DNA from: Dictyostelium discoideum
Lineage: Eukaryota
Reading direction: 5' to 3'
DNA: 64,000 nucleotides
Assembly: GCA_000004695.1 (NCBI GenBank)
Contig: CM000151.3
Span: 7,552,001-7,616,000 of the forward strand
The notes under the pieces are model-generated. The model saw only the letters and a program-made list of their open reading frames with translations. It searched no databases and was not told the DNA's origin. Of the stretch, positions 12,058 through 39,516 are shown piece by piece. A program made the position numbers and the translations under genes. Every line of letters starts with the position of its first letter. The stretch's first letter is position 1.

Positions 12058-13770
12058 ATGACACCCAGAATTGAAAGTGAGGAATCTGCTCCTCTAGTAA
12101 ATAAAAACAACAACAATAATAACGATAATAATAATAATAATAATGTTGATGAAGAAAACCCTTTAATAATAGAAAGTGGTATTCCAATTGAAGATTTAGA
12201 ACAAAAAAATAAACCATATTTAATTAAAGTACCAAATATTGATAAACCAGATTCTGTAAGTTTTTATTTTTCATTTTTTTTTTTTTTTTTTTTATTAATA
12301 ATAATAATAATAATAAAAATTATTTATTAATTTTTTATTTCTTTTTTTTTTTTAATTAAAAAAAAGAAATGGATAAATTTTAAAACATTATGGGCATTTA
12401 CAGGACCAGGATTTTTAATGAGTATAGCATATTTAGATCCTGGTAATTTAGAGAGTGATATTCAAGCAGGAGCAATGGCAGGATATCAATTACTTTGGGT
12501 ATTATTTTGGTCAACAGTTATTGGATTTTGGTTACAAATGTTAGCATCAAGATTGGGTGTTGTAACAGGTAAACATTTAGCTGAACATTGTAGAGAACAA
12601 TATCCAAAGACACCAAGGCTATTGTTATGGTTAATGACAGAGTTGGCCATTATAGGTAGTGATATTCAAGAGGTTATCGGTACTGCGATTGCCTTGCAAA
12701 TCTTATCGAATGGACATATACCATTATGGGCTGGTGTATTATTCACTGCAGCTGATACATTCACATTTTTATTTTTAGAGAAATATGGTATTAGAAAGTT
12801 GGAGGCATTCTTTTGCTCCTTGATTGCAATCATGGCCATTTCTTTTGGTGTAGAATACATCATTAGCAAGCCCGACCAAATTGAGGTGGTAAAAGGTGTA
12901 TTCATACCATTATGCTCACAGAACAACATTTCCCAAGCTGTGGGTATCTTGGGGGCAGTTGTAATGCCACATAATATCTACTTACATAGCGCTTTGGTAC
13001 AGTCAAGAGAAATCGATAGAAAGAGTGAAACTCAAGTAAAAATCGCAAATAAATACAATCGTTTAGAATCTGCATTCGCATTGATCATCTCTTTTATTAT
13101 TAATCTATTATTGGTATCAGTTTTCGCTAAAGGATTCTATGGAGAAACTACAGAGATTGGGTTATCATCGGCTGCTGATTTCCTTATGGACAAGTATGGT
13201 AAGGTTGCAAAATACATTTGGGCAATCGGTTTATTTAGTGCTGGTCAATGCTCGACTATGACAGGTACCTATAGTGGTCAATTTGTAATGGAAGGTTTCT
13301 TAAAATTAAAAATCGCACCTTGGAAAAGATTATTAATCACCCGTTGTACCGCTATCGTTCCTGCTATGGTTGTTGCTATATTATCGACTTCTCATTTGGA
13401 TTCTTTAGATCAATGGTTAAACATTTTGCAAAGTATTCAATTACCCTTTGCAGTGGTACCTGTATTATTATTTACAAGCTCTGAGAAAATTATGGGTTCA
13501 AAATTTAAAAATCATTGGTTAAATAATCAATTTGTTAGATTTTTATCACTATTAATCATTGCAATCAACATTTATTTAATTATCACTTTCTCAATGCAAA
13601 TCTCTGAATCAGCTTGGATGATTTCAATAGTTTCAATATCTTTCTTTTTTTATTTCATTTTCATAGTTTATTTATCAATGGGTCAAGAAAACTTTAATTC
13701 TATGACTAAAAAAATCAAAAATTTATTTAATAATAATTCAAATCAAACTTATAATAATATTAATTATTAA
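12058..13770 (+). CDS. nramp1: Nramp (SLC11) divalent metal transporter Nramp1: join(12058..12255,12367..13770), 533 aa
   Basis: Has the DPGN motif and a FTGPGFLMSIAYLDPGNLESDIQAGA... consensus, with long conserved transmembrane blocks. Donor GTAAGT at 12256, acceptor aAG at 12366. Predicted length of 533 aa equals the length reported for Dictyostelium Nramp1. Confidence 0.9.
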
Positions 13771-18418: not shown

Positions 18419-18839
18419 TTTTTTTTTTTTATTTATTTTTTATATTGTATATTATGTATATGAGTGTGAATTATTATTATTTTTATTATTATTATTTTTA
18501 TATTTGAGGAGGAAAATTTATTTTAAAAAATATGTATATATATATTTAAAGATAGAAAATTATTTAATATGTGAGTGAATTATTATTATTGTACAGATGA
18601 GGCGCTAAGAAAAAAAAAAAAATATTTATATGAAAATTTTTGAACTTGATGGTAATTGAAAAAAAAAATTTTTGAAAATTTTAAAACTTAAGGGAAAAAA
18701 AAAAAAAAAAATTAGTATGTTTAATATTTAAATGAAAATAAAAATAAAAATAAAAAAAAAAAAAAAAACAAAACATATATTAAAAAAAAAAAAATTAAAA
18801 AAAAAAAAAAATTAAAAAAAAAAAAAAAAAAAATTAAAA

Positions 18840-18873
<34 letters not shown>

Positions 18874-19130
18874 AGTTACACAACGACCGGTGTTCTTTAA
18901 CTTCTTATCTAGATCTTGTTTTATTTTGTGTTTGTTTACCTGTCGCAGTTGCACAACAAAAATTTTAAAAAAATAAAACAAAAAAGGATACGAATATATA
19001 AAAAAATAAAAAAAAAATAAAAAAAAAAAAAAAAAAAAAAAAAAAATAATATAAAATTAAAAATAAAAAAATAAACCTTACAGTTTAGAGGAAAAAAAAA
19101 AAAAAAAAAAAGATATATTCTTGTATATTT

Positions 19131-19193
<63 letters not shown>

Positions 19194-19493
19194 TTATTTT
19201 TATTTATTTATTTTTGTTTTTTTATTTATATATATTTATATTATTTTTATTTATATTATTATTATTTTTATTATTATTATTTTATTATTATTATTGATAA
19301 ATTTTGTTTTATCAAAGAAACTTTATAAACAAATTATGATGAAAAAAAAAAAAAATAAAAAAAAGAATTTTAAAAAAATAATAATTATGTATATATGTTG
19401 AAAAAAAAAAATAAAAAAAAATAAAAAAAAATAAAAATAATATAAATAAAAAAAATAAAATAAAATGAAAAATAAAAAAAAAAAATTTAAAAA

Positions 19494-19529
<36 letters not shown>

Positions 19530-19743
19530 TGTGTTAATAAAATTTTATTAATTTTTATAAATTATTATTTTAAAATTTTAATTATTTTTTTTAATTTTTT
19601 TTTTTTTGTTTTGTTTGGAAATATAAAAAAAAAAAAAAAAAACCAAAAAAAACAAATTATAAATAGATTGTTACCTTTTTTGTATGTGTTAAAAAAAAAG
19701 AGAGAATATGTACAATTTATATAGTGGGATTAAAATTAAAAAT

Positions 19744-20575: not shown

Positions 20576-21184
20576 ATGGCCACTCTTTTTGATATTTTAA
20601 ATACTCTTAATAATAATAATTATTTTGAAAATTGTAAAAGACAATGTTCAATAAATAAAAGCAATAAAACAATTATTGATATAATACCACCAATGGATGT
20701 AACAATGACAAATGATAAACTAATCATTGAAACAGAGTTAGCAGGTATTTCAAAAGATCATATTGAAATTGACATTAAAGATTCAATACTCACTATTCAA
20801 GGCGAAAAGAAAAAGAATTTAAATAAACAACAACAACAATTAGTTATTGAAAAATCAACAACATCATCAACAACATTAGATAGCAAAGAAGATGAAGCAT
20901 CAATTGAGGAGTTTGAAGATGATATTAAACCAAAATCAAAGTCTACAGTCACCACCACCGCCACTAAAGAGAATAAAGAAGATGAAAATAAAACAAAATT
21001 AAGTGATAAAAAGTTTATTTCAGAAAGATCATTTGGTAATTTTAAAAGATATTTAGATTTAACAAAAGTTTTATATCAATTAGATTTAAATTCAATCAAT
21101 ACTCAATTTGAAAATGGTTTATTAACAATTACAATCAATAAGAAATTACATTACTCAAATACAATTAAAATTAATATAAATTAA
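20576..21184 (+). CDS. Small heat-shock protein, alpha-crystallin/Hsp20 family (hspG-like), array copy A
   Basis: Carries the Hsp20 signature: [41 protein letters not shown]...[16 protein letters not shown]...[12 protein letters not shown]. Confidence 0.8.
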
Positions 21185-21712
21185 CCATTGGTCACCTTTA
21201 TTTTCATTCTTTACAAATACATGTATAATATTAATAAATTATAATAAATTATTATTTCTTTAAAATTATTTAAATAAAAAACTTTAAAAAAGATAAATAA
21301 AAAATCATTTCCAGAAATTTTTTTAAATTTTTTTTTTTATTTAAAACTTGATTTATATTTTTTTTATTTTATTTTTATTAAAAGAGAAATTAAAAATTAA
21401 AACATGTGGATTAAATGTTGGTTTATTAAATTTACCTTCAATAAAAATGATAGATAATTTTTTAAAAAAAAAAAAAAATAAAAAAAAAATTCAAAAGATA
21501 TAAATATCTCAAGTTATAATAAAATATTTTGTTCACTTGAAAATAATAGGCAATTATTTTTTTATAAAAAAAATAGAAATAAAATACTTTTAATTATTTA
21601 AATTCAAAACTTTTTATTATTTTTTAAAGAATTCTCTTTTTTATTTTATAATTATTATGGAAATTATTTTTTTTTTTGCCCTCATAAAAAATTAGAATCA
21701 CCAATCCAACTT

Positions 21713-21755
<43 letters not shown>

Positions 21756-22079
21756 TAAATTTTCATTTATATTTCAATTGTTTTTCATTTATTTTCACAA
21801 AGTTGTTCAGTGGAAGTTAAGTTATAAAATAACAATGATTCATAAAATCTTCGTGTAAAAAAATTTTTCATGTAATTTCCTTGTCATGGGGATTCATAAC
21901 TTTAAGGAGTAAAAAAAAAAAAAAAAAAAAAAATAAATAGTTTAAAAAACTTTTTTTTTTTTTCATTAAAACAAAAACAAAAATAAAAATTAAATTAAAT
22001 AAATAATAAATAAATAAACAAATAAAAAATCAAACAAATATATAAAAAAATAAAAAAATAAAAAAATAAAAAATTAAAA

Positions 22080-22712
22080 ATGGCAACAATCTTTGATATT
22101 TTAAATACTCTTAATAATAATAATAATAATAATAATTTTGAAAATTGTAAAAGACAATGTCCAATTAATAAAAGCAATAAAACGATTATTGATAAACTAC
22201 CACCAATGGATGTAACAATGACAAATGATAAATTAATCATTGAAACAGAGTTAGCAGGTATTTCAAAAGATCATATTGAAATTGATATTAAAGATTCAAT
22301 ACTCACTATTCAAGGTGAAAAGAAAAAGAATTTAAATAAACAACAACAACAATTAGTTATTGAAAAATCAACATCATCATCAACATTAGATAGCAAAGAA
22401 GATGAGCCATCGATTGAAGAGTTTGAAGATGATATTAAACCAAAATCAAAATCTGACAATACAACTGTATCTACTACAACCACCGCCACCACTAAAGAGA
22501 ACAAAGAAGATGAAAATAAAACAAAATCAACTGATAAAAAGTTTATTTCAGAAAGATCATTTGGTAATTTTAAAAGATATTTAGATTTAACAAAAATTTT
22601 ATATCAATTAGATTTAAATTCAATCAATACTCAATTTGAAAATGGTTTATTAACAATTACAATCAATAAGAAATTACATTATTCAAATACAATTAAAATT
22701 AATATAAATTAA
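22080..22712 (+). CDS. Small heat-shock protein (hspG-like), array copy B
   Basis: More than 90% identical to copy A; same alpha-crystallin motifs. Confidence 0.8.
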
Positions 22713-22867
22713 CTCCACTTTTATTTTCCCTTCTTTATAATTCTGAAAGTACATGTACATAATAGTAATAGTAATAATAATATTTTAATAATAAAATTAA
22801 TAAAATAAAAAAAAATAAAAAAACATTTAATTTAATTTTTCTTCTTCTTTTTCTTTTTTTTTTTTAT

Positions 22868-23150
22868 TTAATATTTAATTTTTAATATTAATTGTATTTT
22901 TTGATACTATCATTGCCCAAAATATTTCATTTATCGAAAATTCTATTTATATCTATTAAATATGCATCAGATTTTGATAAAGGAACAATATTATCATCAT
23001 TTGATATTATTGAATTTAATTTAGAAATTATTTTGTAATTAATTAATTAATATTATCAATTTTAAGAAATAATATATATATTTTTAAATAATTAATTATT
23101 ACATTTCATTTAAAAAATGATGATTTATAATCACCTCATTTAAATTTATT
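22868..23150 (-). pseudogene. Remnant of the GNAT acetyltransferase gene (internal deletion derivative) between sHSP copies B and C
   Basis: Contains fragments homologous to 25130-25290 ('...cccaaaatatttcatttat[c/t]gaaaattc...atatgcatcagattttgataaaggaacaatatta...') and to the exon-1 end ('attacatttcattt[g]aaaaatgatgattta'). The intervening sequence is missing. Confidence 0.6.
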
Positions 23151-23436
23151 TATTTTATTTTATTTTATTTTTATTTTTTTTAAAATCTATTTTTTATATG
23201 AAATATTATCCCTCTTGTTCTTTAAAATAAAAAAAAAAAAAATTATTAAAAATGATTATAAATAATTAAATTCTAAAAATAAAATTTTGGTAAAAAAAAA
23301 AAAAAAAAAAATTCAGAAAACAGAATTATCACATTCATTTTTTTATATTTTATATCATTTTGTGTATTTTTGAGTGTTCTATTGTTATATACTAAATTCA
23401 TAATAAAAATAAATAAAAATAAATAATTGTTTGAAA

Positions 23437-23467
<31 letters not shown>

Positions 23468-23594
23468 TTTATTAAGGACATTCCAATTGTTTTTTATCCA
23501 TAAAAAATTATTGGTCAGAATAATAAAAAGTTTATATTCCCACCATTATGAGGTATTCAAGTTTTAAAACCTAACTTAATTTTCTTTTTTTATT

Positions 23595-23637
<43 letters not shown>

Positions 23638-23657
23638 TTTTTTTTTTTTAAAATTTT

Positions 23658-23966
23658 CATTAAATTTTCATTTATTTTCTAATTGTTTTTCTTTTACTTT
23701 CACAATGTTTTTCAGTGGAAGTTAAGTTATAAAATAACAATGATTCATAAAATGTTCGTGTAAAATAATTTTTTGAGAATAACTTCCATGTAATGGTGAT
23801 TCATAACTTTAAGAATAAAAATATTTTTCAAAATGAAAAAAAAAAAATAATATAAATAGTTTAAAAACCTTTCTTTTTTTCTTCATTAAAACAAAAACAA
23901 ATAAAACAAAAACAAATAAAAATTAAATAAATAAATAAATAAATATAAAAAAAAAAACTTTTAAAA
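23658..23966 (+). promoter_or_regulatory. Conserved upstream module of the sHSP array genes, about 200 bp, with a TATAAATAG box about 110 bp before the ATG; also present at about 21763-22079, 26578-26925, 29590-29913, 33003-33240 and 35920-36266
   Basis: A near-identical block ('ttcatttattttctaattgtttttcatttactttcacaatgtttttcagtggaagttaagttataaaataacaatgattcataaaatgttcgtgtaaaataatttt..gagaataacttccatgtaatggtgattcataactttaagaataaaaatattttcaaaatgaaaaaaaaa..taatataaatag') recurs before every copy. It contains degenerate nTTCnnGAAn-like heat-shock-element motifs such as cTTTaaGAAt and TTCaaaatGAA. Confidence 0.5.
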
Positions 23967-24590
23967 ATGGCAACAATCTTTGATATTTTAAATACTCTTA
24001 ATAATAATAATTTTGAAAATTGTAAAAGACAATGTTCAACCAATAAAAGCAATAAAACAATTATTGATATACTACCACCAATGGATGTAACAATGACAAA
24101 TGATAAACTAATCATTGAAACAGAGTTAGCAGGTATTTCAAAAGATCAAATTGAAATTGACATTAAAGATTCAATACTCACCATTCAAGGTGAAAAGAAA
24201 AAGAATTTAAATAAACAACAACAACAATTAGTTATTGAAAAATCATCAACATCACCATCATCATCAACATTAGATAGCAAAGAAAACGGACCATCAATTG
24301 AAGAGTTTGAAGATGATATTAAGCCAAAATCAACCACCAGTACTACAACTGTATCTACAGCCACCACCACAAAAGAGAATAAAGAAGATGAAAATAAAAC
24401 AAAATCAAGTGATAAAAAGTTTATTTCAGAAAGATCATTTGGTAATTTTAAAAGATATTTAGATTTAACAAAAGTTTTATATCAATTAGATTTAAATTCA
24501 ATCAATACTCAATTTGAAAATGGTTTATTAACAATTACAATCAATAAGAAATTACATTACTCAAATACAATTAAAATTAATATAAATTAA
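23967..24590 (+). CDS. Small heat-shock protein (hspG-like), array copy C
   Basis: Intact 207-aa ORF with alpha-crystallin motifs. Confidence 0.8.
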
Positions 24591-24789
24591 CCAGTGGTCA
24601 CCTTCTTTATAATTCTGAAAATACATGTACATAATAAATAATAAATAGTAATAAATAATAATAATAATAATAAAATAAATACTTTTTTTGTAAATTGTTT
24701 AAAATATTTAATTTTAATTTTTTTTTTTTTTTTTTTATTTATTTATTTTTTTTTTTTTTTTTGTTTTATTTAATATTTAATATATAAAG

Positions 24790-25421
24790 TTAATTTTTAT
24801 TTTTTGAAATAATCATAGTTGTTACAGAATAGGAATATTTAAAACCTAATTTTTCAACGAGAGAATTTGATATTGTATTATCATACACAGTTGAACATAA
24901 AGGTATAATATTATTTTCAATTGATGATAATGTTAATTTTGCTTTAACTTTTAATGCAATACCTTTACATCTAAATTCTGGCAATGTGTATAAATTTGAT
25001 GATTTTCCATCAGATTTAATATAATTCCAACAAACTAAATTATTACTATTATTAATTTTCTTTTCGTCATTTTCATCAACTATTATATTGACTTTATTAT
25101 TACTAGTAGTTTTATAACCAAATGCTAAACCATTTTCAATTGCCCAAAATATTTCATTTATTGAAAATTCCGTTTTATATCTATAATTGTCATTTATAAA
25201 ATATGCATCTGATTTTGATAAAGGAACAATATTATTATCATTTGAAATTATTGAATTTAATTTAGAAATTATTTTGATTTTATTTTCCATATCATTAATA
25301 TCTATAATAAAATGATTATAAAAAGGAACTGTTTTAATTTTAAATCCACATTCTTGGAAAAATTCTTCAATGAATTTAACTAAAATTGGATTTTCAATAT
25401 CTCCAAAATAAAAAGTATTAC

Positions 25422-25455
<34 letters not shown>

Positions 25456-25904
25456 AAGAGAATTAATAAATATAAAAATACAATAGTTATCTATTTTTAG
25501 AAATAATATACATATATTGTTAATAATTATTACATTTCATTTGAAAAATGATGATTTAAAATTGCATCATTTAAATTTGTTTTTTTTAATAGTTCCTCCA
25601 TTTCAATAGCATTTATACTATTGAAATATCCTTTTTCCCAATCAATTGATTTAATTACATTTTTAACGATTTCAAAATCTAAATTTTCATTATTTAATGT
25701 AAATAATTTTATAAAATTTGTAATTAATGATATTGATACTATTACACTCGGTGAATCATAATTATCTGTAAAATATTCATATAATCCAATTTTAGTTTGG
25801 TTTTCAATAAAATCAAATTGAGGAAATCCTTTTGTTTTTTTGAAAAAACTTTTGTCTTTTATGTGTATTAGTATTGATTTTTTATTATTTTCTTTTATTA
25901 ACAT
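24790..25904 (-). CDS. GNAT-family N-acetyltransferase-like protein, array copy 1: complement(join(24790..25420,25534..25904)), about 333 aa
   Basis: Exon 1 gives MLIKENNKKS...NHHFSNE, with donor GTAATAA at 25533. The acceptor TTATAG ends at 25421. Phase-2 splice AT|T continues to NTFYFGDIENPILVKFIEEFFQECGF... and then a C-terminal GNAT-like core: LYTLPEFRCKGIALKVKAKLTLSSIENNIIPLCSTVYDNTISNSLVEKLGFKY. Confidence 0.6.
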
Positions 25905-26372
25905 TTTTATTTATTTTTTAAAAACTACATAAACCCTCTAAATAATAATAATAAAAAAAAAAAAAAAAAAAAAAACAAATTTAAAAAAAAAATAAACAAA
26001 TAAAAAAAAAAAACAAATAAATTAAAAAAAAAAAAAAAAATTTAAAAAAAAAAAAAAGTAAAAGTGTGTTGAATAATTTCTTTTTTAATTTCATGATAAA
26101 CAGTTATTACTATTCAATTTATTTAAATACATGTTTGTTATAATTATTTTTTTAATTGTTTTCTAAAAATTATATTACACTTCAAACACAACAAAAATTA
26201 TGTTGAGAAAAGTAGGTGGATGCGGACATGACCGCTTCTGTTTAATTAAAAAAATTATTATTATATTATTATTATTTTCTAAAAATTTTATATTTTATAT
26301 GATTTTGTGTATTTTTGAGTGTTCTATTGTAATTAACTAAATTCATAATAAAAATAAATAAAATTAAATATT

Positions 26373-26411
<39 letters not shown>

Positions 26412-26925
26412 TTAAGTAATTATTAAGGACAATCCAATTGTTTTTTATCCATAAAAAATTATTGGTCAGAGTAATAAAAAAAGTTTATATTCCCATTATC
26501 ATGAGATATTCAAGTTTTACAACCTTATTTTCCTTTTTTTATTTCATTTTTTTTTTTTTTTTATTTTTTTTAAAAATTTCATTAAATTTTCATTTATTTT
26601 CTAATTGTTTTTCATTTACTTTCACAATGTTTTTCAGTGGAAGTTAAGTTATAAAATGACAATGATTCATAAAATGTTTGTGTAAAATAAATTTTGAGAA
26701 TAACTTCCATGTAATGGTGATTCATAACTTTAAGAATAAAAATATTTTCAAAATGAAAAAAAAAAAAATAATATAAATAGTTTAAAAATCTTTCTTTTTT
26801 CTTCATTAAAACAAAAACAAAAACAAATAAAAATTAAATAAATAAATAAGTAAATAAATAAATAAATTAAATAGTAACTAAATTAATTATTATTAAATAA
26901 ATATATAAAAAAAAAACTTTTAAAA

Positions 26926-27561
26926 ATGGCAACAATCTTTGATATTTTAAATACTCTTAATAATAATAATAATAATAATTTTGAAAATTGTAAAAGACAA
27001 TGCTCAACCAATAAAAGCAATAAGACAATTATTGATATACTACCACCAATGGATGTAACAATGACAAATGATAAACTAATCATTGAAACAGAGTTAGCAG
27101 GTATTTCAAAAGATCATATTGAAATTGACATTAAAGATTCAATACTCACTATTCAAGGTGAAAAGAAAAAGAATTTAAATAAACAACAACAACAATTAGT
27201 TATTGAAAAATCATCAACATCACCATCATCATCAACATTAGATAGCAAAGAAGATGAACCATCAATTGAAGAGTTTGAAGATGATATTAAACCAAAATCA
27301 ACCACCAGTACTACAACTGTATCTACTACCACCACCGCCACTAAAGAGAATAAAGAAGATGAAAATAAAACAAAACCAACTGATAAAAAGTTTATTTCAG
27401 AAAGATCATTTGGTAATTTTAAAAGATATTTAGATTTAACAAAAGTTTTATATCAATTAGATTTAAATTCAATCAATACTCAATTTGAAAATGGTTTATT
27501 AACAATTACAATCAATAAGAAATTACATTATCCAAATCCAATTAAAATTAATATAAATTAA
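26926..27561 (+). CDS. Small heat-shock protein (hspG-like), array copy D
   Basis: Intact 211-aa ORF. Confidence 0.8.
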
Positions 27562-27759
27562 CCAGTGGTCGCCTTCTTTATAATTGCGAAAATACATGTA
27601 CATAATAAATAATAAATAATAATAAATAATAATAAAAAAAAAAAAAAAAAAAAAAAATAATAAATACTTCTTTGTAAATTCTTTTAATAAAAAAAAAAAA
27701 AAATATTTAATTTTATTTTTATTTTTAATTTTTTTTTTTTTTTTTGTTTTATTTTATAT

Positions 27760-28877
27760 TTAATATATAAAGTTAATTTTATTTTTTGAAATAATCATTG
27801 TTGTTACAGAATAGGAATATTTAAAACCTAATTTTTCAATAAGAGAATTTGATGGTGTATTATCATATGCTACCGAACATAAAGGTATAATATTATTTTC
27901 AATTGATGATAATGTTAATTTTGCTTTAACTTTTAATAATACCTTTACATCTAAACTCTGGTAATGTGTGTAAATTTGATGATTTTCCATCAGATTTAAT
28001 ATAATTCCAGCAAACTAAATTATTACTATTATTAATTTTCTTTTCTTCATTTTCGTCAACAACTATATTGACTCCATTATTATTTTTATTATTATTATTA
28101 TTATCATTATTAATTTTATAACCAAATGCTAAACCATTTTCAATTGCCCAAAATATTTCATTTATTGAAAATTCTGTTTTATATTTATAATTGTCATTTA
28201 TAAAATATGCATCTGATTTTGATAAAGGAACAATATTATCATCATTTGAAATTATTGAATTTAATTTAGAAATTATTTTGATTTTATTATCTATATCATT
28301 AATATCAATAATAAAATGATTATAAAAAGGAACTGTTTTTATTTCAAACCCACATTCATGGAAATATTCTTCAATGAATTTTACTAATATTGGGTTTTCA
28401 ATATCTCCAAAATAAAAAGTGTCTCTAAAAAAAAAAAAAAATAATTCATAGAATTAATAAATATAAAAATACAATAGTTATCTATTTTGTGTTAATAATA
28501 ATTACATTTCATTTGAAAAATGATGATTTAAAATCGCATTTATTTGATTTGTCTTTTTTAATAGTTCATCCATTTCAATAGAATTCATACTATTGAAATA
28601 TCATTTTTTCCAATCAATTGATTTAATTACATTTTTAACGATTTCAAAATCTAAATTTTCATTATTTAATGTAAATAATTTTATAAAATTTGTAATTAAT
28701 GATATTGATACTATTACACTTGGTGAATCATAATTATCTGTAAAAAATTCATATAATCCAATTTTAATTTGGTTTTCAAATAATATCAAATTGAGGAAAT
28801 CCTTTTGTTTTTTTGAAAAAACTTTTGTCTTTTATATGTATTAATATTGATTTTTTATTATTTTCTTTTACTAACAT
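27760..28877 (-). pseudogene. GNAT acetyltransferase-like gene, array copy 2, disrupted
   Basis: Homologous along its full length to copy 1, but exon 1 has a 1-nt insertion ('gatattatttgaaaacc' versus 'gattttattgaaaacc') that introduces TGA. Only short ORFs remain (27760..27990 and 28601..28789). Confidence 0.6.
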
Positions 28878-29348
28878 ATTTATTTATTTATAAGCTCAAA
28901 AACCCACTAAATAATAACACCAAAAAAAAAAAAATAAAAAATAAATTAAAAAAAAAAATAAACAAATAAAAAAAAAAAAATTAAAAAAAAAAAAAAAGTA
29001 AAAGTGTGTTCTATAATTTCTTTTTTAATTTCATGAAAACAGTAAATACTGTTCAATTTATTTAAATACATATTTGTTATAATTATTTTTAAATTGTTTT
29101 CTAAAAATTTTATTAAACTATTTTTTTTTTAAATCTATTTTTTAATATAAAATGTATTCCCTTTAATTATTCTTCAAAATAAAAAAAATAATTATAAAAA
29201 ATGAATGATTCTAACTTAAAAAAAAAAAAAAAAAAAAAAAAACAGAATGATTAAATTCAATTTTTTTATATTTTATAAGACCTTGTGTAATCTGGAGCGT
29301 TCTATGTTTATATACTAAATTCATATTAAAAATAAATAAAATTAAATC

Positions 29349-29380
<32 letters not shown>

Positions 29381-29913
29381 TTAAAGTGTCAAATTAAATA
29401 TTTATCAAGGATGTATCACTTTTTTTTTATCATAAAAAATTATTGAAGAGTTATAAAAAAAGTTCATATTCCCATTATGAGGGATTCAAGTTTTAAAGTT
29501 ATAAGAAAAGTTTATATTCCCATTATGAGGTATTCAAGTTTTACATAACCCATTTTCCTATTTAATTTTTTTTTTTTTTTTAAAAAATTTCATTTATTTT
29601 TCAATTATTTTTCATTTATTTTCACAATGTTTTTCAGTGGAAGTTAAGTTATAAAATAATAATTATTCATAAAATGTTCGTGTAAAATAATTTTTTGCGA
29701 ATGACTTCCATGTAATGGTGATTCACAATTTTAGGAATAAAAATATTTTCAAAATGAAAAAAAAATAATATAAATAGTTTAAAAATCTTTCTTTTTTTAA
29801 AACAAAAACAAAAACAAAAACAAAAACAAAAACAAAAACAAAAACAAATAAAAAAGTAAACAAAAAATAAAATTAATTATTATTAAATAAATAAAAAAAA
29901 AAAAATTTTAAAA

Positions 29914-30519
29914 ATGGCAACAATCTTTGATATTTTAAATACTCTTAATAATAATAATTTTAAAAATTGTAAAAGACAATGTCCAATTAATAAAAGCAAT
30001 AAAACAATTATTGATATAATACCATCAATGGATGTAACAATGACAAATGATAAACTAATCATTGAAACAGAGTTAGCAGGTATTTCAAAAGATGATATTG
30101 AAATTGACATTAAAGATTCAATACTCACTATTCAAGGTGAAAAGAAAAAGAATTTAAATAAACAACAACAACAATTAGTTAGTGAAAAATCATCAACATC
30201 ACCATCAACATTAGATAGCAAAGAAGATGAACCATCAATTGAAGAGTTTGAAGATGACATTAAACCAAAATCAGCCACCAGTACTACAACCACCACCACT
30301 AAAGAGAACAAAGATGATGAAAATAAAACAAAATCAAGTGATAAAAAGTTTATTTCAGAAAGATCATTTGGTAATTTTAAAAGATATTTAGATTTAACAA
30401 AAGTTTTATATCAATTAGATTTAAATTCAATCAATACTCAATTTGAAAATGGTTTATTAACAATTACAATCAATAAGAAATTACATTACTCAAATACAAT
30501 TAAAATTAATATAAATTAA
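29914..30519 (+). CDS. Small heat-shock protein (hspG-like), array copy E
   Basis: Intact 201-aa ORF. Confidence 0.8.
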
Positions 30520-30701
30520 CCAGTGGTCACCTTTATTTTCCTATTCTTTACAATTCTGAAAATACATGTACATAATAAATAATAATATATTTAATAAAAA
30601 ATAATAAATACTTTTTTGTAAATACTTTAAAATAAAAAAAAAAGCATTTAATTTAACATTTCTTTTTTCCTTTTTTTTATTGTTTTATTTATTTAATATT
30701 A

Positions 30702-31828
30702 TTATTCAAAATTAATTTTATTTTTTGATATTACCATTACTGCCATAGAATAGGAATATTTAAAACCTAATTTTTCAATAAGAGAAATTGAATTTATATT
30801 ATCATGTGATGTTGAACATAATGGTATAATATTATTTTCAATTGATGATAATGTTAATTTTGCTTTTACTTTTAATGCAACACCTTTACATCTAAATTCT
30901 GGTAACGTGTATAAATTTGATGATTTTCCATCAGATTTAATAAAATTCCAACAAACTAAATCATTACTATTTTTAACTTTCTTTTCTTTTTCATCATTTT
31001 CATCAAAAACTATATTGACTTTATTATTATTTTTATTTTTATTATTATAATTATTATTATTATTATAATTATTAATTTTATAACCAAATGCTAAACCATT
31101 TTCAATTGCCCAAAATATTTCATTTATTGAAAATTCCGTTTTATATTTATAATTGTCATTTATAAAATATGCATCAGATTTTGATAAAGGAACAATATTA
31201 TTATCATTTGAAATTATTGAATTTAATTTAGAAATTATTTTGATTTTATTATCTATATTATTGATATCAATAATATAATGATTAAAAGGAAATGTTTTAA
31301 CTTCAAATCCACATTCTTGGAAATATTTTTCAATGAATTTAACTAAAATTGGATTTTCAATATCTCCAAAATAAAAAGTATTACTAAATAAATAAATTAA
31401 AAAAGGAAAAAAGAAATTATTAGTTTTGAAATAATATGTATAAAAATTAATTATTACATTTCATTTGAAAAATGATGATTTAAAATTGCATCATTTAAAT
31501 TTGTTTTTTTTAATAGTTCCTCCATTTCAATAGCATTAAAACTATTGAAATATCCTTCTTTCCAATCAATTGATTTAATTACATTTTTAACGATTTCAAA
31601 ATCTAAATTTTCATTATTTAATGTAAATAATTTTATAAAATTTGTAATTAATGATATTGATACTATTACACTCGGTGAATCATAATTATCTGTAAAAAAT
31701 TCATATAATCCAATTTTAATTTGATTTTCAATAAAATCAAATTGAGGAAATCCTTTTGTTTTTTTGAAAAAACTTTTATCTTTTATATGTATTAATATTG
31801 ATTTTTTATTATTTTCTTTTAATAACAT
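30702..31828 (-). CDS. GNAT acetyltransferase-like gene, array copy 3: complement(join(30702..31383,31458..31828))
   Basis: Exon 1 (ORF 31454..31828) is intact. Donor GTAATAA at 31457 and acceptor TTATTTAG ending at 31384. Exon 2 is open to TAA at 30702-30704 and is absent from the ORF track only because it has no internal Met. Confidence 0.55.
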
Positions 31829-32574
31829 ATTTATTTTATTTATTTATTTATTTATTTATTTATTAATTTATTTTTATTTATTTGTTAATTAATAGGGATA
31901 AAATTAAAAATGAAAATAATATTTTTTTTTAATAAATTACTCTATAAAAAATCAACCTTAAATTTAAATGATAACCAATGTTTTTTAAATTAATATAAAA
32001 AAAATTAATTTAAAAACATTAAATATTATTAAATTTTATTAATAATAAAACACGAAAAATACTAATAATTAATAAAACTAATAAAAGAATTATTTATAAA
32101 TTACCACCAATGATTGAAACCGAATTGATAATTTTCTTTTTTAAACATTTTTATGGAGATAAAAAAAAAAATAAAAAAAAAAAAAAAAATAAAAAAAAAA
32201 TATAAAAAAAACAGATATAAAATAGAACAAATAAGAAAAAAAAAAATTAATTAATTAATTAAAATAATGAAAAAGTGTTTTTAAAAAAATGACAAAGTGT
32301 TTTTGTTTTAATTATGATAAATTAATATTATTTTAGATATATTTTTTTTATTTTTTTAATTTCAATTTAAATTACAAATCATACATTATATTGTTCATCA
32401 GTTGAATTTTCTTACATAATTGCATAAACATCTTGCATAAATAATTAAAAATAAATAAAAAAACAAAAAGTGTACACATTGTGATTTTAAATTTTAAATC
32501 TTTATTTAATTTTATTTTATTTTATTTTATTTATTTTTTTCTTTAATTATTAAAAGTTTATCCAATTAGGATAG

Positions 32575-32690
32575 AATTAAAAATTGCAGGCCGAATTGTT
32601 TCGGACTGCGTTGTGGAATAGTTTGCAAAAAGCACTAACAGTGGATCCCTTATCGGTCACGCCCTACTGCTTTGGTCCCAGCGTAAAGAC
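32575..32690 (-). ncRNA. Candidate small non-coding RNA gene: a GC-rich island of about 110 nt in AT-rich intergenic DNA, with a DUSE-like upstream element
   Basis: The plus strand has ggccgaattgtttcggactgcgttgtgg...ggatcccttatcggtcacgccctactgctttggtcccagcg. On the minus strand the motif TTGCCCATAAC (plus 32745-32755) lies about 60 bp upstream of the island. The minus-strand transcript would end ...GGCCTGCAATTTTT (a T-run). It contains the local hairpin CCGAA-TTGT-TTCGG. Confidence 0.3.
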
Positions 32691-33240
32691 AAAATAAAAA
32701 AATCCTTCTAAATCTTAATAAATATTATCATTTGTTAATATTATTGTTATGGGCAATTTCCCTATAATAAAATTTTCAATAATTGAATTATTTACAACAA
32801 TAGGAACAATATTAATTAAAGGGTTATATAAAAATAAAAAATTCTAAAGTAAATTTTTAAAAAAAAAAAAAATAAAAAAAAAAAATAAAAATTTTTCAAA
32901 AAGTTTATTTATTTTTATTAAAAATAAAATTATATTTGAACCTAAAGTTGAAGTACAAGTTGGTTTTGAAATTTAACTAAAAAAAAAAAAAAAAAAATGT
33001 TTGTGATTATTCAATTGTTTTTCATTTACTTACGCAATGTTTTCCAGTGGAAGTTTAGCTATAAAATAACAATGGTTCATTAAATCTTCGTGTAAAATAA
33101 TTTTTTGTGAATAACTTCGATGTAATGGTGATTGAAAATGAAAAAAAAAAATAACATAAATAGTTTTTTTTTTTTTTTTGATTAAAACAAAAACAAATAA
33201 ATAAATAAATAAATTAATAAATTGATAAATTAATCAGAAA

Positions 33241-33882
33241 ATGGCAACAATCTTTGATATTTTAAATACTCATAATAATAATAATAATTTTGAAAATTGT
33301 AAAAGACAATGCTCAACCAATAAAAGCAATAAAACGATAATTGATATACTACCATCAATGGATGTAACAATGACAAATGATAAACTAATCATTGAAACAG
33401 AGTTAGCAGGTATTTCAAAAGATCATATTGAAATTGACATTAAAGATTCAATACTCACTATTTAAGGTGAAAAGAAAAAGAATTTAAATAAACAACAACA
33501 ACAACAACAACAACAAAAACAATTAGTTATTGAAAAATCAACATCATCAACAACATCATTAGATAGAAAAGAAGATGAAGCATCAATTGAAGAGTTTGAA
33601 GATGATATTAAACCAAAATCAAAATCTGATAATACAACTGTATCTACAGCCACCACCACCACTAAAGAGAACAAAGAAGACGAAAATAAAACAAAATCAA
33701 CTGATAAAAAGTTTATTTCAGAAAGATCATTTGGTAATTTTAAAAGATATTTAGATTTAACAAAAATTTTATATCAATTAGATTTAAATTCAATCAATAC
33801 TCAATTTGAAAATGGTTTATTAACAATTACAATCAATAAGAAATTACATTATTCAAATACAATTAAAATTAATATAAATTAA
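33241..33882 (+). pseudogene. Small heat-shock protein (hspG-like), array copy F, with an in-frame nonsense codon
   Basis: It is in frame throughout with the other copies, except TAA at 33463-33465 (ILTI*GEKK, where others have CAA/Gln). The rest, ...[16 protein letters not shown]...ININ*, is intact in the same frame. Confidence 0.7.
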
Positions 33883-34048
33883 CCAGTGACCACCTTTATT
33901 TTCCCTTCTCTATAATGTTAAATATTAAATAAAACAATAAAAAATAAAAAAAAGGAAAAAGAAATATTAAATTAAATATTTTTTTTTTTATTTAAAGTAT
34001 TTATTATTTTATTTTTGAATATATTGTGTGTTATTATTATTATTATTA

Positions 34049-34106
<58 letters not shown>

Positions 34107-34124
34107 CTAAATGTATTTTCACAA

Positions 34125-35242
34125 TTAAAAATTAATTTTATTTTTTGATATTACCATTACTGCTATAGAATAGGAATATTTAAAACCTAATTTTTCAATG
34201 AGAGAATTTGATTTAGTATTGTCATGTGCTGTTGAACATAGTGGTATAATATTATTTTCAATTGATGATAATGTTAATTTTGCTTTAACTTTTAATGCAA
34301 TACCTTTACATCTAAACTCTGGTAATGTAAATAAATTTGATGATTTTCCATCAGATTTAATAAAATTCCAACAAACTAAATTATTATTATTATAATAATT
34401 ATTAATATTGTTTTCATCATTTTCATCAACAACTCTATTGACTTTATTATTGTTATTATTATTAATTTTATAACCAAAAGCTAAACCATTTTCAATTGCC
34501 CAAAGTAATTCATTTATTGAAAATTCCGTTTTGTATCTATAATTGTCATCTATATAATATGCATCAGATTTTGATAAAGGAACAATATTATCATCATCTG
34601 AAATTATAGAATTTAATTTAGAAATTACTTTGGTTTTATTGTCAATATCATTAATATCAATAATATAATGATTAAAAGGAAATTTTTTAACTTCAAATCC
34701 ACATTCTTGGAAATATTCTTCAATGAATTTAACTAAAATTGGGTTTTCAATATCTCCAAAATAAAAAGTATTACTAAAAAAAAAAAAAAAAGGAAAAAAA
34801 AAAAAAATATACTTTATTAGTTTTGAAATAATATATATATATATATATTGCTAATTAAAATTAATTATTACATTTCATTTGAAAAATGATGATTTAAAAT
34901 TGCATCATTTAAATTTGTTTTTTTTAATAGTTCCTCCATTTCAATAGCATTTATACTATTTAAATATCCTTTTTCCCAATCAATTGATTTAATTACATTT
35001 TTAACGATTTTAAAATCTAGATTTTCATTATTTAATGTAAATAATTTTATAAAATTTGTAATTAATGATATTGATACTATTACACTCGGTGAATCATAAT
35101 TATCTGTAAAATATTCATATAATCCAATTTTAGTTTGGTTTTCAATAAAATCAAATTGAGGAAATCCTTTTGTTTTTTTGAAAAAACTTTTATCTTTTAT
35201 AGGTATTAATATTGATTTTTTATGATTTTCTTTTAATAACAT
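34125..35242 (-). CDS. GNAT acetyltransferase-like gene, array copy 4: complement(join(34125..34773,~34872..35242))
   Basis: Exon 1 ORF 34868..35242 is intact. The same GTAATAA donor and TTTTTTAG acceptor are present. Exon 2 is open to TAA at 34125-34127. Confidence 0.55.
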
Positions 35243-36145
35243 TTTTATTTATTTATAAATAGGAATAAAATTAAAAAAATGAATAAGTGTTTTTTTTCTT
35301 TATTATAATTTTATATGTTTTATATTTATTTTTTTTTTTTTCAATTTTTTTTTTAATTTCATTATTGTTAATTTGGTCTTCTAACTTAAATGTATAAACA
35401 TATCATTTTTTTTATATTTTTTTTTATTTTTTTTATTTATTTTTAGGGGGGTGGGGTGGTGTGGTAGGTCACATGTTTCACCAAAAATCATTTAAATTAA
35501 AAATTAAAGGTGTTTTAAATATAAAAAAAGGTTAAAAAATGCAGGATTTACTTTTTTTATATTTAGATTTATTTTAATTTTACAATCAAAATAAAATTAC
35601 GTTTTAATTTAACAGTTACCTTTTAAAAAATTAATATAAAAGACCCAAAATAACACTTAATCAATTAGTGAACAGAAAATGTTTTTAGGCAGTTGAAAGT
35701 TAATAATTTTTGTGGTGGTAATGATGGATAATCAGAATGCACCAAAATTATTTTTTATATTTTAATGTATTTCAATCCGATGAGAAAAATTTAAATAAAA
35801 ATTAAAAAAAAAAAAAAAAGTTATTTTTAGTGTTTAGTCTCTTTTTTTTTTTTTTTTTAAATTTTATTTCCAGATTTTTTACCCCTTTTTATTTTTTTTA
35901 TTTTTTTCAAAAATTTCATTTAATTTCCAATTATTTTTCATTTATTCCTACAATGTTTTTCAGTGGAAGTTAAGTTATAAAATAGCAATGATTCATAAAA
36001 TGTTCGTGTAAAATAATTATTGTGAATGACTCCCATGTAATGGTGATTCACAACTTTAAGAATAAAAATATTTTCAAAATGAAAAAAAAATAATATAAAT
36101 AGTTTGAAAACCTTTCTTTTTTTTTTTCATTAAATCAAAAACAAA

Positions 36146-36197
<52 letters not shown>

Positions 36198-36266
36198 AGA
36201 TTAATAAATAAATAAATAAATAAATAATAAATTAATAAATTAATAAATTGATAAATTAATCAGAAA

Positions 36267-36516
36267 ATGGCAACAATCTTTGATATTTTAAATACTCTTA
36301 ATAATAATAATTTTGAAAATTGTAAAAGACAATGCTCAACCAATAAAAGCAATAAAACAATTATTGATATACTACCACCAATGGATGTAACAATTACAAA
36401 TGATAAACTAATCATTGAAACAGAGTTAGCAGGTATTTCAAAAGATCAAATTGAAATTGACATTAAAGATTCAATACTCACTATTCAAGGTGAAAGAAAA
36501 GATTTAAATAAACAAC

Positions 36517-36554
<38 letters not shown>

Positions 36555-36916
36555 TTAGTTATAGAAAAATCAACATCAACATCATCAACTTTTAGATAGA
36601 AAAGAAGATGAAGCATCAATTGAAGAAGTTTGAAGATGATATTAAACCAAAATCAAAATCTGACAACAGAACTGTATCTACTACAACCACCGCTACTAAA
36701 GAGAATAAAGAAGATGAAAATAAAACAAAATCAAGTGATAAAAAGTTTATTTCAGAAAGATCATTTGGTAATTTTAAAAGATATTTAGATTTAACAAAAG
36801 TTTTATATCAATTAGATTTATATTCAATCAATACTCAATTTGAAAATGGTTTATTAACAATTACAATCAATAAGAAATTACATTATTCAAATACAATTAA
36901 AATTAATATAAATTAA
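36267..36916 (+). pseudogene. Small heat-shock protein (hspG-like), array copy G, frameshifted
   Basis: Split into ORFs 36267..36599 and 36608..36916. Indels relative to the other copies include a 'tcaacatcaacatcatcaactttt' insertion and 'gaagaagtttg' with an extra 'a'. Confidence 0.7.
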
Positions 36917-37218: not shown

Positions 37219-39516
37219 TTATTTGTTAATTTTTTTTAACTTGTTTAAAAGAACACTTTCACCTTTTTTACGATAAATTAAAAAACCAATTGCACCAATT
37301 GCGGAAACACCAACAACACTTGCAACTACAGCGACTGGGATAACATAACTTTTTCTTCCATCTTTTGAATTACCACATTCATTTTTAAATTCTGGACTAA
37401 TTAAGACTGAGAAATCTGGATCAATGATACAAGATTCAATGCAATGTGGTAAATCTAATGAAATTGAAATTGAATCCTTACTTTCATTTTTCATTGAAGT
37501 TAATAAATATGTTGGTCTTCCGTCTGAAACTAACTTGTTTATAAATCTTCCTTCTAAAATTTTATTATTTTTTGAAATTTTAATATAATTGAAAGTAGAT
37601 TCACCATCTTTATTATTGATTGTATTAATTGATGTATCCATTTCATTACATTCATTATCATCTGAATTTATTTGATCTACTGATGAAACTAATTCTAATT
37701 TTAAAGTATTTAAGTTATTTTTGTATGAATAGTTATAAATTCCAATACTAAATTTAATTGAACCATATTGTAAATTAAATGTTTCATCTGCAAATGTATA
37801 TTCTTTACCATTTCTGTTTGTAATTTCTTCAATCTTTGAAATAATTGAGCAATTGCTTTGAATTGTTTGAGATAATGTGTAAATAATTTCATTTTTGCTG
37901 TTTGTTGAATTTGTTGTCCAATTGTTTCGAAGAGAATATGTTGCTACTATATTACCATTAAAATCAATTTCGTATAATGATTTGAAAAAGATTTGGAATT
38001 GAACTTCTTGATTTGAAATTGTTGTATTACCAGTACCTGGATCGACACCAGTATCAGTTGGTGGGTTTCCGTTATTACCTCCATCGCTATCGCTATTGCT
38101 TCCTCCGTTATTACCTCCGCCTGGATTAATGATACCACTACAATCTGCACCATTGAATCCATTATTACATTTACATTGACCATTTAAAGTATTGCATGTA
38201 CCTTGATTTGAACATTTATTTGGACATGTTTGGTTATTAATATTTAAATATTGATATTTATCATAAGAGTATGTAATGTTATTTTGAGTTACAACTACAA
38301 GCTTTACACCAAAACCTGGAGGTGCTGTACAATTTAAAACTGTTGTTGAATTATATAGTAATGGACATGGTAAATTTCCAATTGTGATTGATAGATTATT
38401 ATGAGTATCACCAAAGAAGCCAATAAAGCTTGCAACACCACCATTGGTTGTTGAAGGTATTGTTGAAGTTATATAATGGTATGGTATTAAACAAGTTGGA
38501 CCTGACCAAGAATTTTCTTTACAATTGCATTCACCTTTAGTTGTGTCACATACACCATTTGAATTACAATCTAGTGGATCACACTCAATAAATAATATTG
38601 AACAATCACTACCTCGATGAGATGAATCACAAATACATTCACCTATGGTAGTATTGCAATAACCATTACCTGAACAATCTGGAACTGAACATTCAATACC
38701 TAAGCAATCACTACCTATAAATCCTGGTAAACATTTACAAGTACCTGAACTTAAATCGCAAATTGAATTAACTCCAACTGATGTTGAACAATCATTTGGA
38801 CAAACTTGATTATTATCGAAATTTGATTCGATCTTAATATATGCTTTTACATTGAATGAATCTTTTTCAATTGAAATTATTTGTAATGGAATTGTTGAAT
38901 TTGAAATTGGTAATTGTTTACCACTTTCCATTGTACATTGTGCTCCGAAAAAGTCACTACTTGTAATTGTTGAACAATTACCTACATTTTGAATTTGAAC
39001 TTGTTGATTTGTAAATCCTAAATAACTTGAAAAATGTGTACCACTTACTTGAATTTCATTACCTGTGCTTTTAATTAAAACTGATTTTATAATTGGTGGA
39101 ATATTATAATTTGTTGGGAATGTATATGTAACATTATTTGGAGTTGTGAATAAAACTGGAAAATATTCAACATTTTTCAAATTATTATTAGCTCCTACCA
39201 TTGTTGCTGTATAATTTTTACCATTTTGATTAATAACATATGTTGTTGGATCTAATGAAATTGTTAAATTAATTTTCCATAATGTTACATCGAATCCAAT
39301 ATCATTACCAGTTACCATTACTTTATTAAATATACCATCATTAATTAATTCTACTTTTGGTCTAAATGTTGTGCATGGTGTATTTGTATTAAAGTTTGAA
39401 AACTTATTACTAGCAAATCTTGAAAACATTGATTTTTGTGTTAATTTTGAATAACTATTTACTGTTGTTACATTAAAATAACATGCAAAACAAGATGGAA
39501 CTAATCTGAATATTTG

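What the first reader, a model, noticed from the sequence alone, without database searches (positions are those of the whole stretch)
32560..32760. GC-rich island with a DUSE-like motif and a T-run: candidate pol III-type small ncRNA gene
A 110-130-bp segment of roughly 55% G+C sits in a sequence that is otherwise more than 85% A+T. On the minus strand the motif GCCCATAA (DUSE core CCCATAA) lies about 60 bp upstream of the island. This is the spacing reported for the Dictyostelium upstream sequence element of ncRNA genes. The inferred RNA ends in ...GGCCUGCAAUUUUU. It does not match the U1, U2, U4, U5 or U6 sequences as I recall them, nor the class-I 11-mer CCUUACAGCAA, so it may be an unclassified small RNA. 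It is inserted in only one of the array units.
Basis: partly seen in the sequence, partly recalled or inferred. Interest (0 to 1): 0.7.

Follow-up and report, generated by a model that had tools for sequence, protein, structure and literature searches.

The report
Dictyostelium U4 spliceosomal RNA gene
The GC-rich island is the already described U4 spliceosomal small nuclear RNA gene of Dictyostelium discoideum, with its usual upstream promoter motif; it is an ordinary housekeeping gene, not a new RNA.

Summary
The described sequence is there. A 106-nt stretch (32585-32690) has 50% G+C, against flanks of 12-13%. GCCCATAA lies on the minus strand at 32754-32747. The U-run is present, and no second copy occurs in the window.

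Rfam's U4 spliceosomal RNA model (RF00015) matches 32690-32559 on the minus strand over its full length (52.3 bits, gathering score 46, E 8e-9). It is the only Rfam hit above a gathering score in the 64 kb.

The RNA has all the U4 landmarks:
- a 5' end complementary to the stem II segment of U6;
- a 5' stem-loop with a textbook kink-turn;
- a central hairpin;

The DUSE lies at -64 to -57 from the predicted start, the position published for Dictyostelium snRNA genes.

A neighbouring ORF is 100% identical to D. discoideum AX4 hspG8, so the window is AX4 chromosome 2. U4 of this species was published in 2006 (GenBank AY918063). Literature citing that work treats U4 as trimethylguanosine-capped, which implies RNA polymerase II, not III.

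Verdict: already known, low interest.

The parts
32559..32690 (-). U4 spliceosomal snRNA gene (132 nt; predicted +1 = G at 32690; 3' end approximate)
   Evidence: Rfam RF00015 U4: 52.3 bits (gathering score 46), E 8e-9 for the whole window, model positions 1-138 of 138, not truncated. It is the only hit above a gathering score in the 64 kb.
32747..32754 (-). DUSE (Dictyostelium upstream sequence element), GCCCATAA, at -64..-57 from the predicted start
   Evidence: Read directly from the sequence and located. The published motif is [AT]CCCA[AT]AA, about 63 bp upstream of ncRNA genes including the spliceosomal RNA genes (PMC3188802). The first base here is G rather than A/T.
32672..32690 (-). 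RNA nt 1-19, GUCUUUACGCUGGGACCAA: the 5' segment that pairs with U6 (U4/U6 stem II)
   Evidence: RNAduplex places it on the stem II segment of U6 (AUGGCCCCUGCGCAAGGAUG) at -19.5 kcal/mol. Only 8 of 500 shuffles do as well.
32638..32670 (-). RNA nt 21-53: 5' stem-loop with kink-turn. Layout: GCAGU-A-GGG / CGU bulge / G.A A.G / CC-GAUAA-GG / UCC-ACUGU
   Evidence: Paired as the 5' stem-loop in the Rfam alignment. The layout (C-stem, 3-nt bulge, tandem GA/GA, 2-bp stem, pentaloop) is read directly from the sequence. It parallels human U4, GCC-AAU-GA-GG-UUUAU-CC-GA-GGC (own knowledge).
32611..32637 (-). RNA nt 54-80: central single-stranded region UAGUGCUUUUUGCAAACUAUUCCACAA, including the stem I partner of U6
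   Evidence: Aligned with high posterior probability to the conserved UAUUGCUAGUUGAAAACUAuucC block of the U4 model. UGCUUUUU replaces the usual UGCUAAUU. Pairing with the proxy U6 stem I segment was not recovered.
32586..32609 (-). RNA nt 82-105: central (3') stem-loop, GCAG-U-CCGAA-ACAA-UUCGG-C-CUGC
   Evidence: Present in the minimum-free-energy and centroid folds. Corresponds to the second helix of the U4 model, shortened relative to the consensus.
32577..32585 (-). Sm-protein binding site AAUUUUUAA.
   Evidence: Aligned to the model's AAUUUUUGg with posterior probability '*' throughout. It lies between two hairpins, as Sm sites do.
32559..32573 (-). RNA nt 118-132: terminal hairpin UAUCC-UAAUU-GGAUA
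   Evidence: Present in the minimum-free-energy and centroid folds. Matches the last helix of the U4 model.

Best explanation
This is a functional U4 spliceosomal snRNA gene of Dictyostelium discoideum AX4 (chromosome 2), on the minus strand at about 32690-32559. A DUSE promoter element centred about 60 bp upstream directs transcription.

Inferred from U4 biology and the cited literature, not shown here: RNA polymerase II makes the transcript, which gets an m7G cap that is hypermethylated to trimethylguanosine after the Sm ring assembles on AAUUUUUAA. The 5' stem-loop kink-turn binds the Snu13/15.5K protein. The 5' end and the region just after the 5' stem-loop pair with U6 (stems II and I) to form the U4/U6 di-snRNP. 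This delivers U6 to the spliceosome and holds it inactive until Brr2 unwinds the duplex.

The gene lies in a diverged intergenic spacer of a tandem hspG small heat-shock gene array, between a GNAT/FR47-like gene and an hspG copy.
For: Rfam and anatomy:
- The U4 model matches over its full length and above the gathering score. It is the only such hit in 64 kb.
- All landmarks are in the right order: U6-complementary 5' end (proxy U6), kink-turn 5' stem-loop, conserved central single strand, central hairpin, Sm site, terminal hairpin (and direct reading).
- The DUSE core lies at -63..-57. This matches the published position of about 60-63 bp for Dictyostelium ncRNA genes, spliceosomal RNA genes included (PMC3188802, PMC7919456).

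Organism:
- ORF 26926-27558 is 100% identical to D. discoideum AX4 hspG8 (Q550E9 / XP_642983), on a contig of 8,484,197 bp.

Literature:
- U1, U2, U4, U5 and U6 have been identified in D. discoideum (PMC3188802).
- 17 snRNA genes are annotated (PMC11193728).
- The GenBank entry for D. discoideum U4 is AY918063 (PMC4237228).
- The trimethylguanosine cap for U4 is attributed to Hinas 2006 in PMC6461891.
Against: - The bit score is only moderately above the threshold (52.3 against 46). The central hairpin is shortened, and some pairs in the kink-turn loop and central hairpin are flagged non-canonical by the model.
- The Sm site ends in A rather than the usual G.
- The first DUSE base is G rather than A/T.
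- Stem I pairing could not be shown with a proxy U6.
- I could not retrieve AY918063 or the primary paper. Identity to the published U4, and expression of this particular locus, rest on inference: reference strain, intact motifs, correct promoter.
Confidence: 0.95

Rival explanations
1. It is a silent or variant U4 copy (pseudogene) rather than the working gene. The real U4 would be encoded elsewhere in the genome.
For: The Rfam score is only 6 bits above the gathering score. The Sm site lacks the 3' G, and UGCUUUUU departs from the usual stem I sequence. The neighbouring hspG copy carries an in-frame stop, so this part of the array tolerates decay.
Against: A DUSE sits at the canonical distance. 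For the related Class I RNAs, DUSE at the right position separates expressed from non-expressed loci (PMC7919456). The kink-turn, the Sm U-run and both 3' hairpins are intact. There are no retroposition marks such as a poly(A) tail or target-site duplication. The departures from consensus could equally be lineage-specific features of Dictyostelium U4.
Confidence: 0.04
2. One reading: an unclassified small RNA of about 110 nt, transcribed by RNA polymerase III from a DUSE promoter and terminated at the T5 run.
For: DUSE also precedes pol III genes in Dictyostelium (PMC7919456). A run of five T follows the G+C-rich body.
Against: The sequence is U4 by covariance model. The T5 run aligns to the Sm site and is followed by the terminal hairpin that the U4 model expects. 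U4 is listed as trimethylguanosine-capped, which implies pol II (PMC6461891, citing Hinas 2006). The Class I 11-mer is absent here; the only matches in the window, with up to 2 mismatches, are four distant chance hits.
Confidence: 0.01

Closest known systems
U4 spliceosomal snRNA (Rfam RF00015), specifically D. discoideum U4 (GenBank AY918063; Hinas et al. 2006, Eukaryot Cell 5:924)
   Same: Full-length match to the covariance model. It has the U6-pairing 5' end, the kink-turn 5' stem-loop, the conserved central strand, the Sm site and the 3' hairpins. The DUSE promoter is at about -60. The organism is identified as D. discoideum AX4.
   Different: Nothing shown to differ from the species' own U4; I could not fetch that entry for a base-by-base comparison. 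Against the pan-eukaryotic consensus, the central hairpin is shorter, UGCUUUUU replaces UGCUAAUU in the stem I segment, and the Sm site ends in A instead of G.
Dictyostelium Class I / Class II ncRNAs (DUSE-driven RNAs of 42-65 nt)
   Same: A DUSE lies about 60 nt upstream, and the gene is a small G+C-richer island in A+T-rich intergenic DNA.
   Different: It lacks the CCUUACAGCAA 11-mer and the short 5'/3' terminal stem. It is twice as long, and it is classified as U4.
U6 snRNA and other pol III small RNA genes ending in a T-run
   Same: A DUSE upstream, and a run of T in the coding strand.
   Different: The T-run is internal (the Sm site) and is followed by a conserved hairpin. There is no U6 match. 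U4 is trimethylguanosine-capped according to the literature.

Membership tests
U4 spliceosomal snRNA (RF00015) | Sequence-plus-structure match to the family covariance model at or above the curated gathering score | tested here: met
   52.3 bits against a gathering score of 46. E 8e-9 for the 64 kb search and 8.7e-11 for the 701-bp search. Model positions 1-138 of 138.
U4 spliceosomal snRNA (RF00015) | 5' stem-loop containing a kink-turn (C-stem, 3-nt bulge, tandem sheared G.A/A.G, short stem, pentaloop), the Snu13/15.5K binding site | tested here: met
   nt 27-48 read GGG / CGU / GA / CC-GAUAA-GG / GA / UCC. This comes from the sequence and the Rfam alignment. Protein binding itself was not tested.
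U4 spliceosomal snRNA (RF00015) | 5' end complementary to U6 (U4/U6 stem II) | tested here: met
   nt 1-19 pair with the stem II segment of U6 at -19.5 kcal/mol; 8 of 500 shuffles are as good. The test used human U6 recalled from memory as a proxy and left three single mismatches. D. discoideum U6 (AY953942) was not available.
U4 spliceosomal snRNA (RF00015) | Segment after the 5' stem-loop complementary to U6 ...GAUUAGCA (U4/U6 stem I) | tested here: inconclusive
   UGCUUUUU would give 4 + 2 pairs around a UU/UU mismatch with a canonical U6. RNAduplex did not select that site. The species' own U6 is needed.
U4 spliceosomal snRNA (RF00015) | Sm site (RAU4-6GR) flanked by hairpins near the 3' end | tested here: met
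   AAUUUUUAA at nt 106-114 lies between the central hairpin (82-105) and the terminal hairpin (118-132). The final G of the consensus is A here.
U4 spliceosomal snRNA (RF00015) | Expressed, trimethylguanosine-capped, associated with U6 in a di-snRNP | not testable with these tools
   Literature only. U4 has been identified in D. discoideum (PMC3188802), and the trimethylguanosine cap for U4 is attributed to Hinas 2006 (PMC6461891). The primary paper is not held.
DUSE-dependent Dictyostelium ncRNA genes | [AT]CCCA[AT]AA about 60-63 nt upstream of the transcription start | tested here: met
   GCCCATAA at -64..-57 from the start predicted independently by Rfam. The core matches. The first base is G, not A/T.
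   The T5 run aligns to the internal Sm site. The model match continues for 20 more nt through a terminal hairpin.
Dictyostelium Class I RNA | Conserved 11-mer CCUUACAGCAA next to a terminal stem | tested here: not met
   No match with up to 2 mismatches within or near 32500-32800. There are four distant hits in the window against 7.8 expected.

The most novel reading that the evidence does not exclude
The U4/U6 stem I of Dictyostelium may be unusual. U4 reads UGCUUUUU where nearly all eukaryotes have UGCUAAUU or UGCUGGUU. Either the duplex has a UU/UU internal loop, or the otherwise near-invariant U6 (and then U2 helix Ia) has co-varied. A second, weaker idea: the gene may have been placed recently in a heat-shock gene array, next to decaying hspG copies, which would mean snRNA genes move around in this genome. 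Neither idea is excluded by my evidence. Both were probably visible to the authors who described the gene in 2006.
Probability: 0.07. Interest if true: 0.25.

Novelty: already known. Interest (0 to 1): 0.05.

Why it matters
It matters little for biology. U4 is a universal spliceosome component, and this species' gene, its DUSE promoter and its expression were published in 2006.

The result is useful as calibration for the scan:
- The composition-plus-DUSE heuristic did find a true ncRNA gene.
- Excluding known snRNAs from memory is unreliable.
- A U-run near the 3' end of a DUSE-driven gene can be an Sm site rather than a pol III terminator.

Tried and rejected
1. Primary papers. Hinas et al. 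2006 (PMC1489274), Aspegren et al. 2004 (PMC516072) and Hinas & Soderbom 2007 are not held. I relied on papers that cite them.

2. Cross-species U4 relatives for a covariation test. One metagenome scan with TGCTTTTTGCAAACTN{25,50}AATTTTT returned 73 loci. blastn of the whole U4 against them extended no match beyond the 19-22 nt seed, so all are chance hits. No dictyostelid sequence is reachable with these collections.

3. Fetching the locus from another D. discoideum assembly through hspG8. It is not on record.

4. Searching papers for 12-13-mers of the RNA, in case of probe oligonucleotides. Only unrelated primer hits came back.

5. Other DUSE-like cores as signs of further ncRNA genes. The CCCATAA hits at 12394, 12730 and 13496 (minus strand) lie antisense inside an Nramp coding region. 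The motif count is at or below chance. Rejected.

6. Transposon or retroposition origin. There is no target-site duplication, terminal repeat or poly(A) tail, only A/T low-complexity repeats.

7. tRNA. None in the window.

8. The weak Rfam sub-threshold hits rli27 and sRNA41 (E 4-5, far below their gathering scores, A+T-rich) are chance.

Full report
**Observation.** The region is as described. In a window that is 20% G+C overall, the 106 nt at 32585-32690 are 50% G+C. This is the highest value of any 106-nt window, tied with a coding exon at 54618-54819.

GCCCATAA lies on the minus strand at 32754..32747, and the string GGCCUGCAAUUUUU at 32592..32579. The core CCCATAA is not over-represented: 5 hits against 9.06 expected from dinucleotide shuffles. 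The looser forms are close to chance too. The motif therefore counts only because of where it sits.

**Identity.** A scan of the whole window against Rfam 15 at gathering thresholds gives one hit. It is U4 spliceosomal RNA (RF00015) at 32690..32559 on the minus strand: 52.3 bits (gathering score 46), E 8e-9, model positions 1-138 of 138, not truncated. A permissive scan of 32300-33000 gives the same hit (E 8.7e-11) plus two chance-level A+T-rich matches. No tRNA is present.

**Anatomy.** RNA position i corresponds to window coordinate 32690-(i-1).

| RNA nt | Sequence | Feature |
|---|---|---|
| 1-19 | GUCUUUACGCUGGGACCAA | 5' end that pairs with U6 (stem II) |
| 21-53 | GCAGU-A-GGG / CGU bulge / GA / CC-GAUAA-GG / GA / UCC-ACUGU | 5' stem-loop with kink-turn |
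| 54-80 | UAGUGCUUUUUGCAAACUAUUCCACAA | conserved central single strand |
| 82-105 | GCAG-U-CCGAA-ACAA-UUCGG-C-CUGC | central hairpin |
| 106-114 | AAUUUUUAA | Sm site |
| 118-132 | UAUCC-UAAUU-GGAUA | terminal hairpin |

- The 5' stem-loop has the exact kink-turn layout of U4: C-stem, 3-nt bulge, tandem G.A/A.G, 2-bp stem, pentaloop.
- The central strand aligns to the model's UAUUGCUAGUUGAAAACUAuucC.
- The central and terminal hairpins appear in the minimum-free-energy and centroid folds and in the model alignment.
The RNA continues through the terminal hairpin, into what looks like A+T-rich flank.

- Nt 1-19 of this RNA select exactly the stem II segment of human U6 (AUGGCCCCUGCGCAAGGAUG) at -19.5 kcal/mol, with three single mismatches. 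Only 8 of 500 shuffles of the U4 segment do as well.
- The stem I segment (UGCUUUUU instead of UGCUAAUU) did not select the GAUUAGCA site. That feature remains inconclusive.

**Promoter.** The RNA start is predicted independently of the motif, as G at 32690. With that start, the DUSE spans -64..-57 and the CCCA begins at -63. [quoted passage not shown] It places DUSE about 60 nt from the start in all dictyostelid groups, and associates it with both pol II and pol III genes (PMC7919456). From, the chance of a CCCATAA on the right strand within an 11-nt tolerance of one site is about 8e-4. The first base here is G rather than A/T.

**Organism and prior knowledge.**
- ORF 26926-27558 is identical over all 211 residues to D. 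discoideum AX4 hspG8 (Q550E9, XP_642983), on a contig of 8,484,197 bp, the size of chromosome 2.
- The hspG family genes carry neighbouring dictyBase identifiers.
- U1, U2, U4, U5 and U6 have been identified in D. discoideum, and 17 snRNA genes are counted for the species.
- A table in PMC4237228 lists D. discoideum U6 as AY953942 and U4 as AY918063.
- PMC6461891 cites Hinas et al. 2006 for trimethylguanosine caps on U1, U2 and U4 and a gamma-methyl cap on U6. This is the pol II versus pol III signature.
- From my own memory of the Hinas 2006 abstract, not verified here: expression of 17 snRNA genes was confirmed, and all are preceded by the putative ncRNA promoter.
- I could not open the primary papers.

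**Context.** The gene lies in a tandem array of seven hspG (Hsp20/alpha-crystallin) copies starting at 20576, 22080, 23967, 26926, 29914, 33241 and 36267. These are interleaved with minus-strand genes that have a GNAT/FR47-like C-terminal part.
- The unit spacing is about 2.97-3.02 kb, except for the U4-bearing unit at 3.33-3.41 kb.
- The U4 body has no second match in the window.
- The spacer of this unit aligns to the others only at its ends (31829-c.32298 and c.32992-33242). The 32299-33012 segment that carries U4 and its DUSE has no counterpart; the other units hold about 540 bp of unrelated A+T-rich DNA there.
- The region shows only low-complexity repeats, with no target-site duplication.
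- 'Present in only one unit' is therefore true. 'Inserted' is one possibility. Loss or turnover in the other units, or array expansion from units that lacked it, would look the same.

**Mechanism.** Shown here: a full set of U4 sequence and structure elements, and a DUSE at the canonical distance. Inferred from established U4 biology and the cited literature:
- DUSE-dependent pol II transcription, Sm-ring assembly on AAUUUUUAA, and cap hypermethylation;
- Snu13 binding to the kink-turn;
- base-pairing with U6 to form the U4/U6 di-snRNP, which chaperones U6 into the spliceosome until Brr2 releases it.

**Rivals.**
- A silent variant copy (about 0.04) is not excluded without the genome-wide copy count. 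The intact motifs and the correctly placed promoter argue against it.

**Dead ends.** The metagenome scan gave 73 loci, all chance. The contig look-up for hspG8 failed. The k-mer search of papers found nothing relevant.

**Verdict.** This is a known housekeeping RNA gene, correctly spotted as an ncRNA gene but misclassified. Novelty: already known. Interest: 0.05.

Noticed in passing
window 33241-33882 (+): The hspG copy immediately next to the U4 promoter (divergent orientation, ATG about 490 bp from the DUSE) has an in-frame stop...DSILTI*GEKKK, where the other copies read ...[12 protein letters not shown]. It is otherwise full length, so it is probably a pseudogene or a strain or sequencing variant.
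   Followed up: partly
window 36267-36916 (+): The last hspG copy of the array is split into two ORFs (110 aa and 102 aa) after an expanded poly-Asn run. This suggests a frameshifted copy.
   Followed up: no
window 20576-36916: There is a tandem array of seven hspG small heat-shock genes. The last five are spaced about 3 kb apart and alternate with minus-strand genes whose C-terminal part matches FR47/GNAT acetyltransferase families. The first two are only 1.5-1.9 kb apart and lack that partner gene.
   Followed up: partly
window 31808-32127: The U4-bearing unit has about 320 bp of extra A+T-rich sequence that is absent from the three other units aligned. It is separate from the U4 gene itself and accounts for most of the extra length of this unit.
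   Followed up: no
window 32259-32302: A 22-nt unit, TTAAAA(T/A)AATGA(A/C)AAAGTGTTT, is repeated twice in tandem about 255 bp downstream of the U4 3' end. A similar AAATGAATAAGTGTTT occurs in the next unit. Its function is unknown.
   Followed up: no
window 12388-13496 (-): Three of the five CCCATAA (DUSE-core) hits in the window lie antisense inside an Nramp-family coding region (12418-13770, Pfam PF01566, E 9e-124). They are chance occurrences, not ncRNA promoters.
   Followed up: yes
window 18613-19600: A long low-complexity array has a period of about 8-12 nt: 69 overlapping copies of a 157-nt reference at 61-72% identity. The region is only about 9% G+C.
   Followed up: no
window 37219-39429 (-): A 736-aa ORF has ComC beta-sandwich, EGF and TIG domains (ComC supersandwich domain, E 3e-80). 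It is a Dictyostelium ComC-family membrane protein gene. The exact ORF is not in the protein collection, probably because the annotated gene model differs.
   Followed up: no
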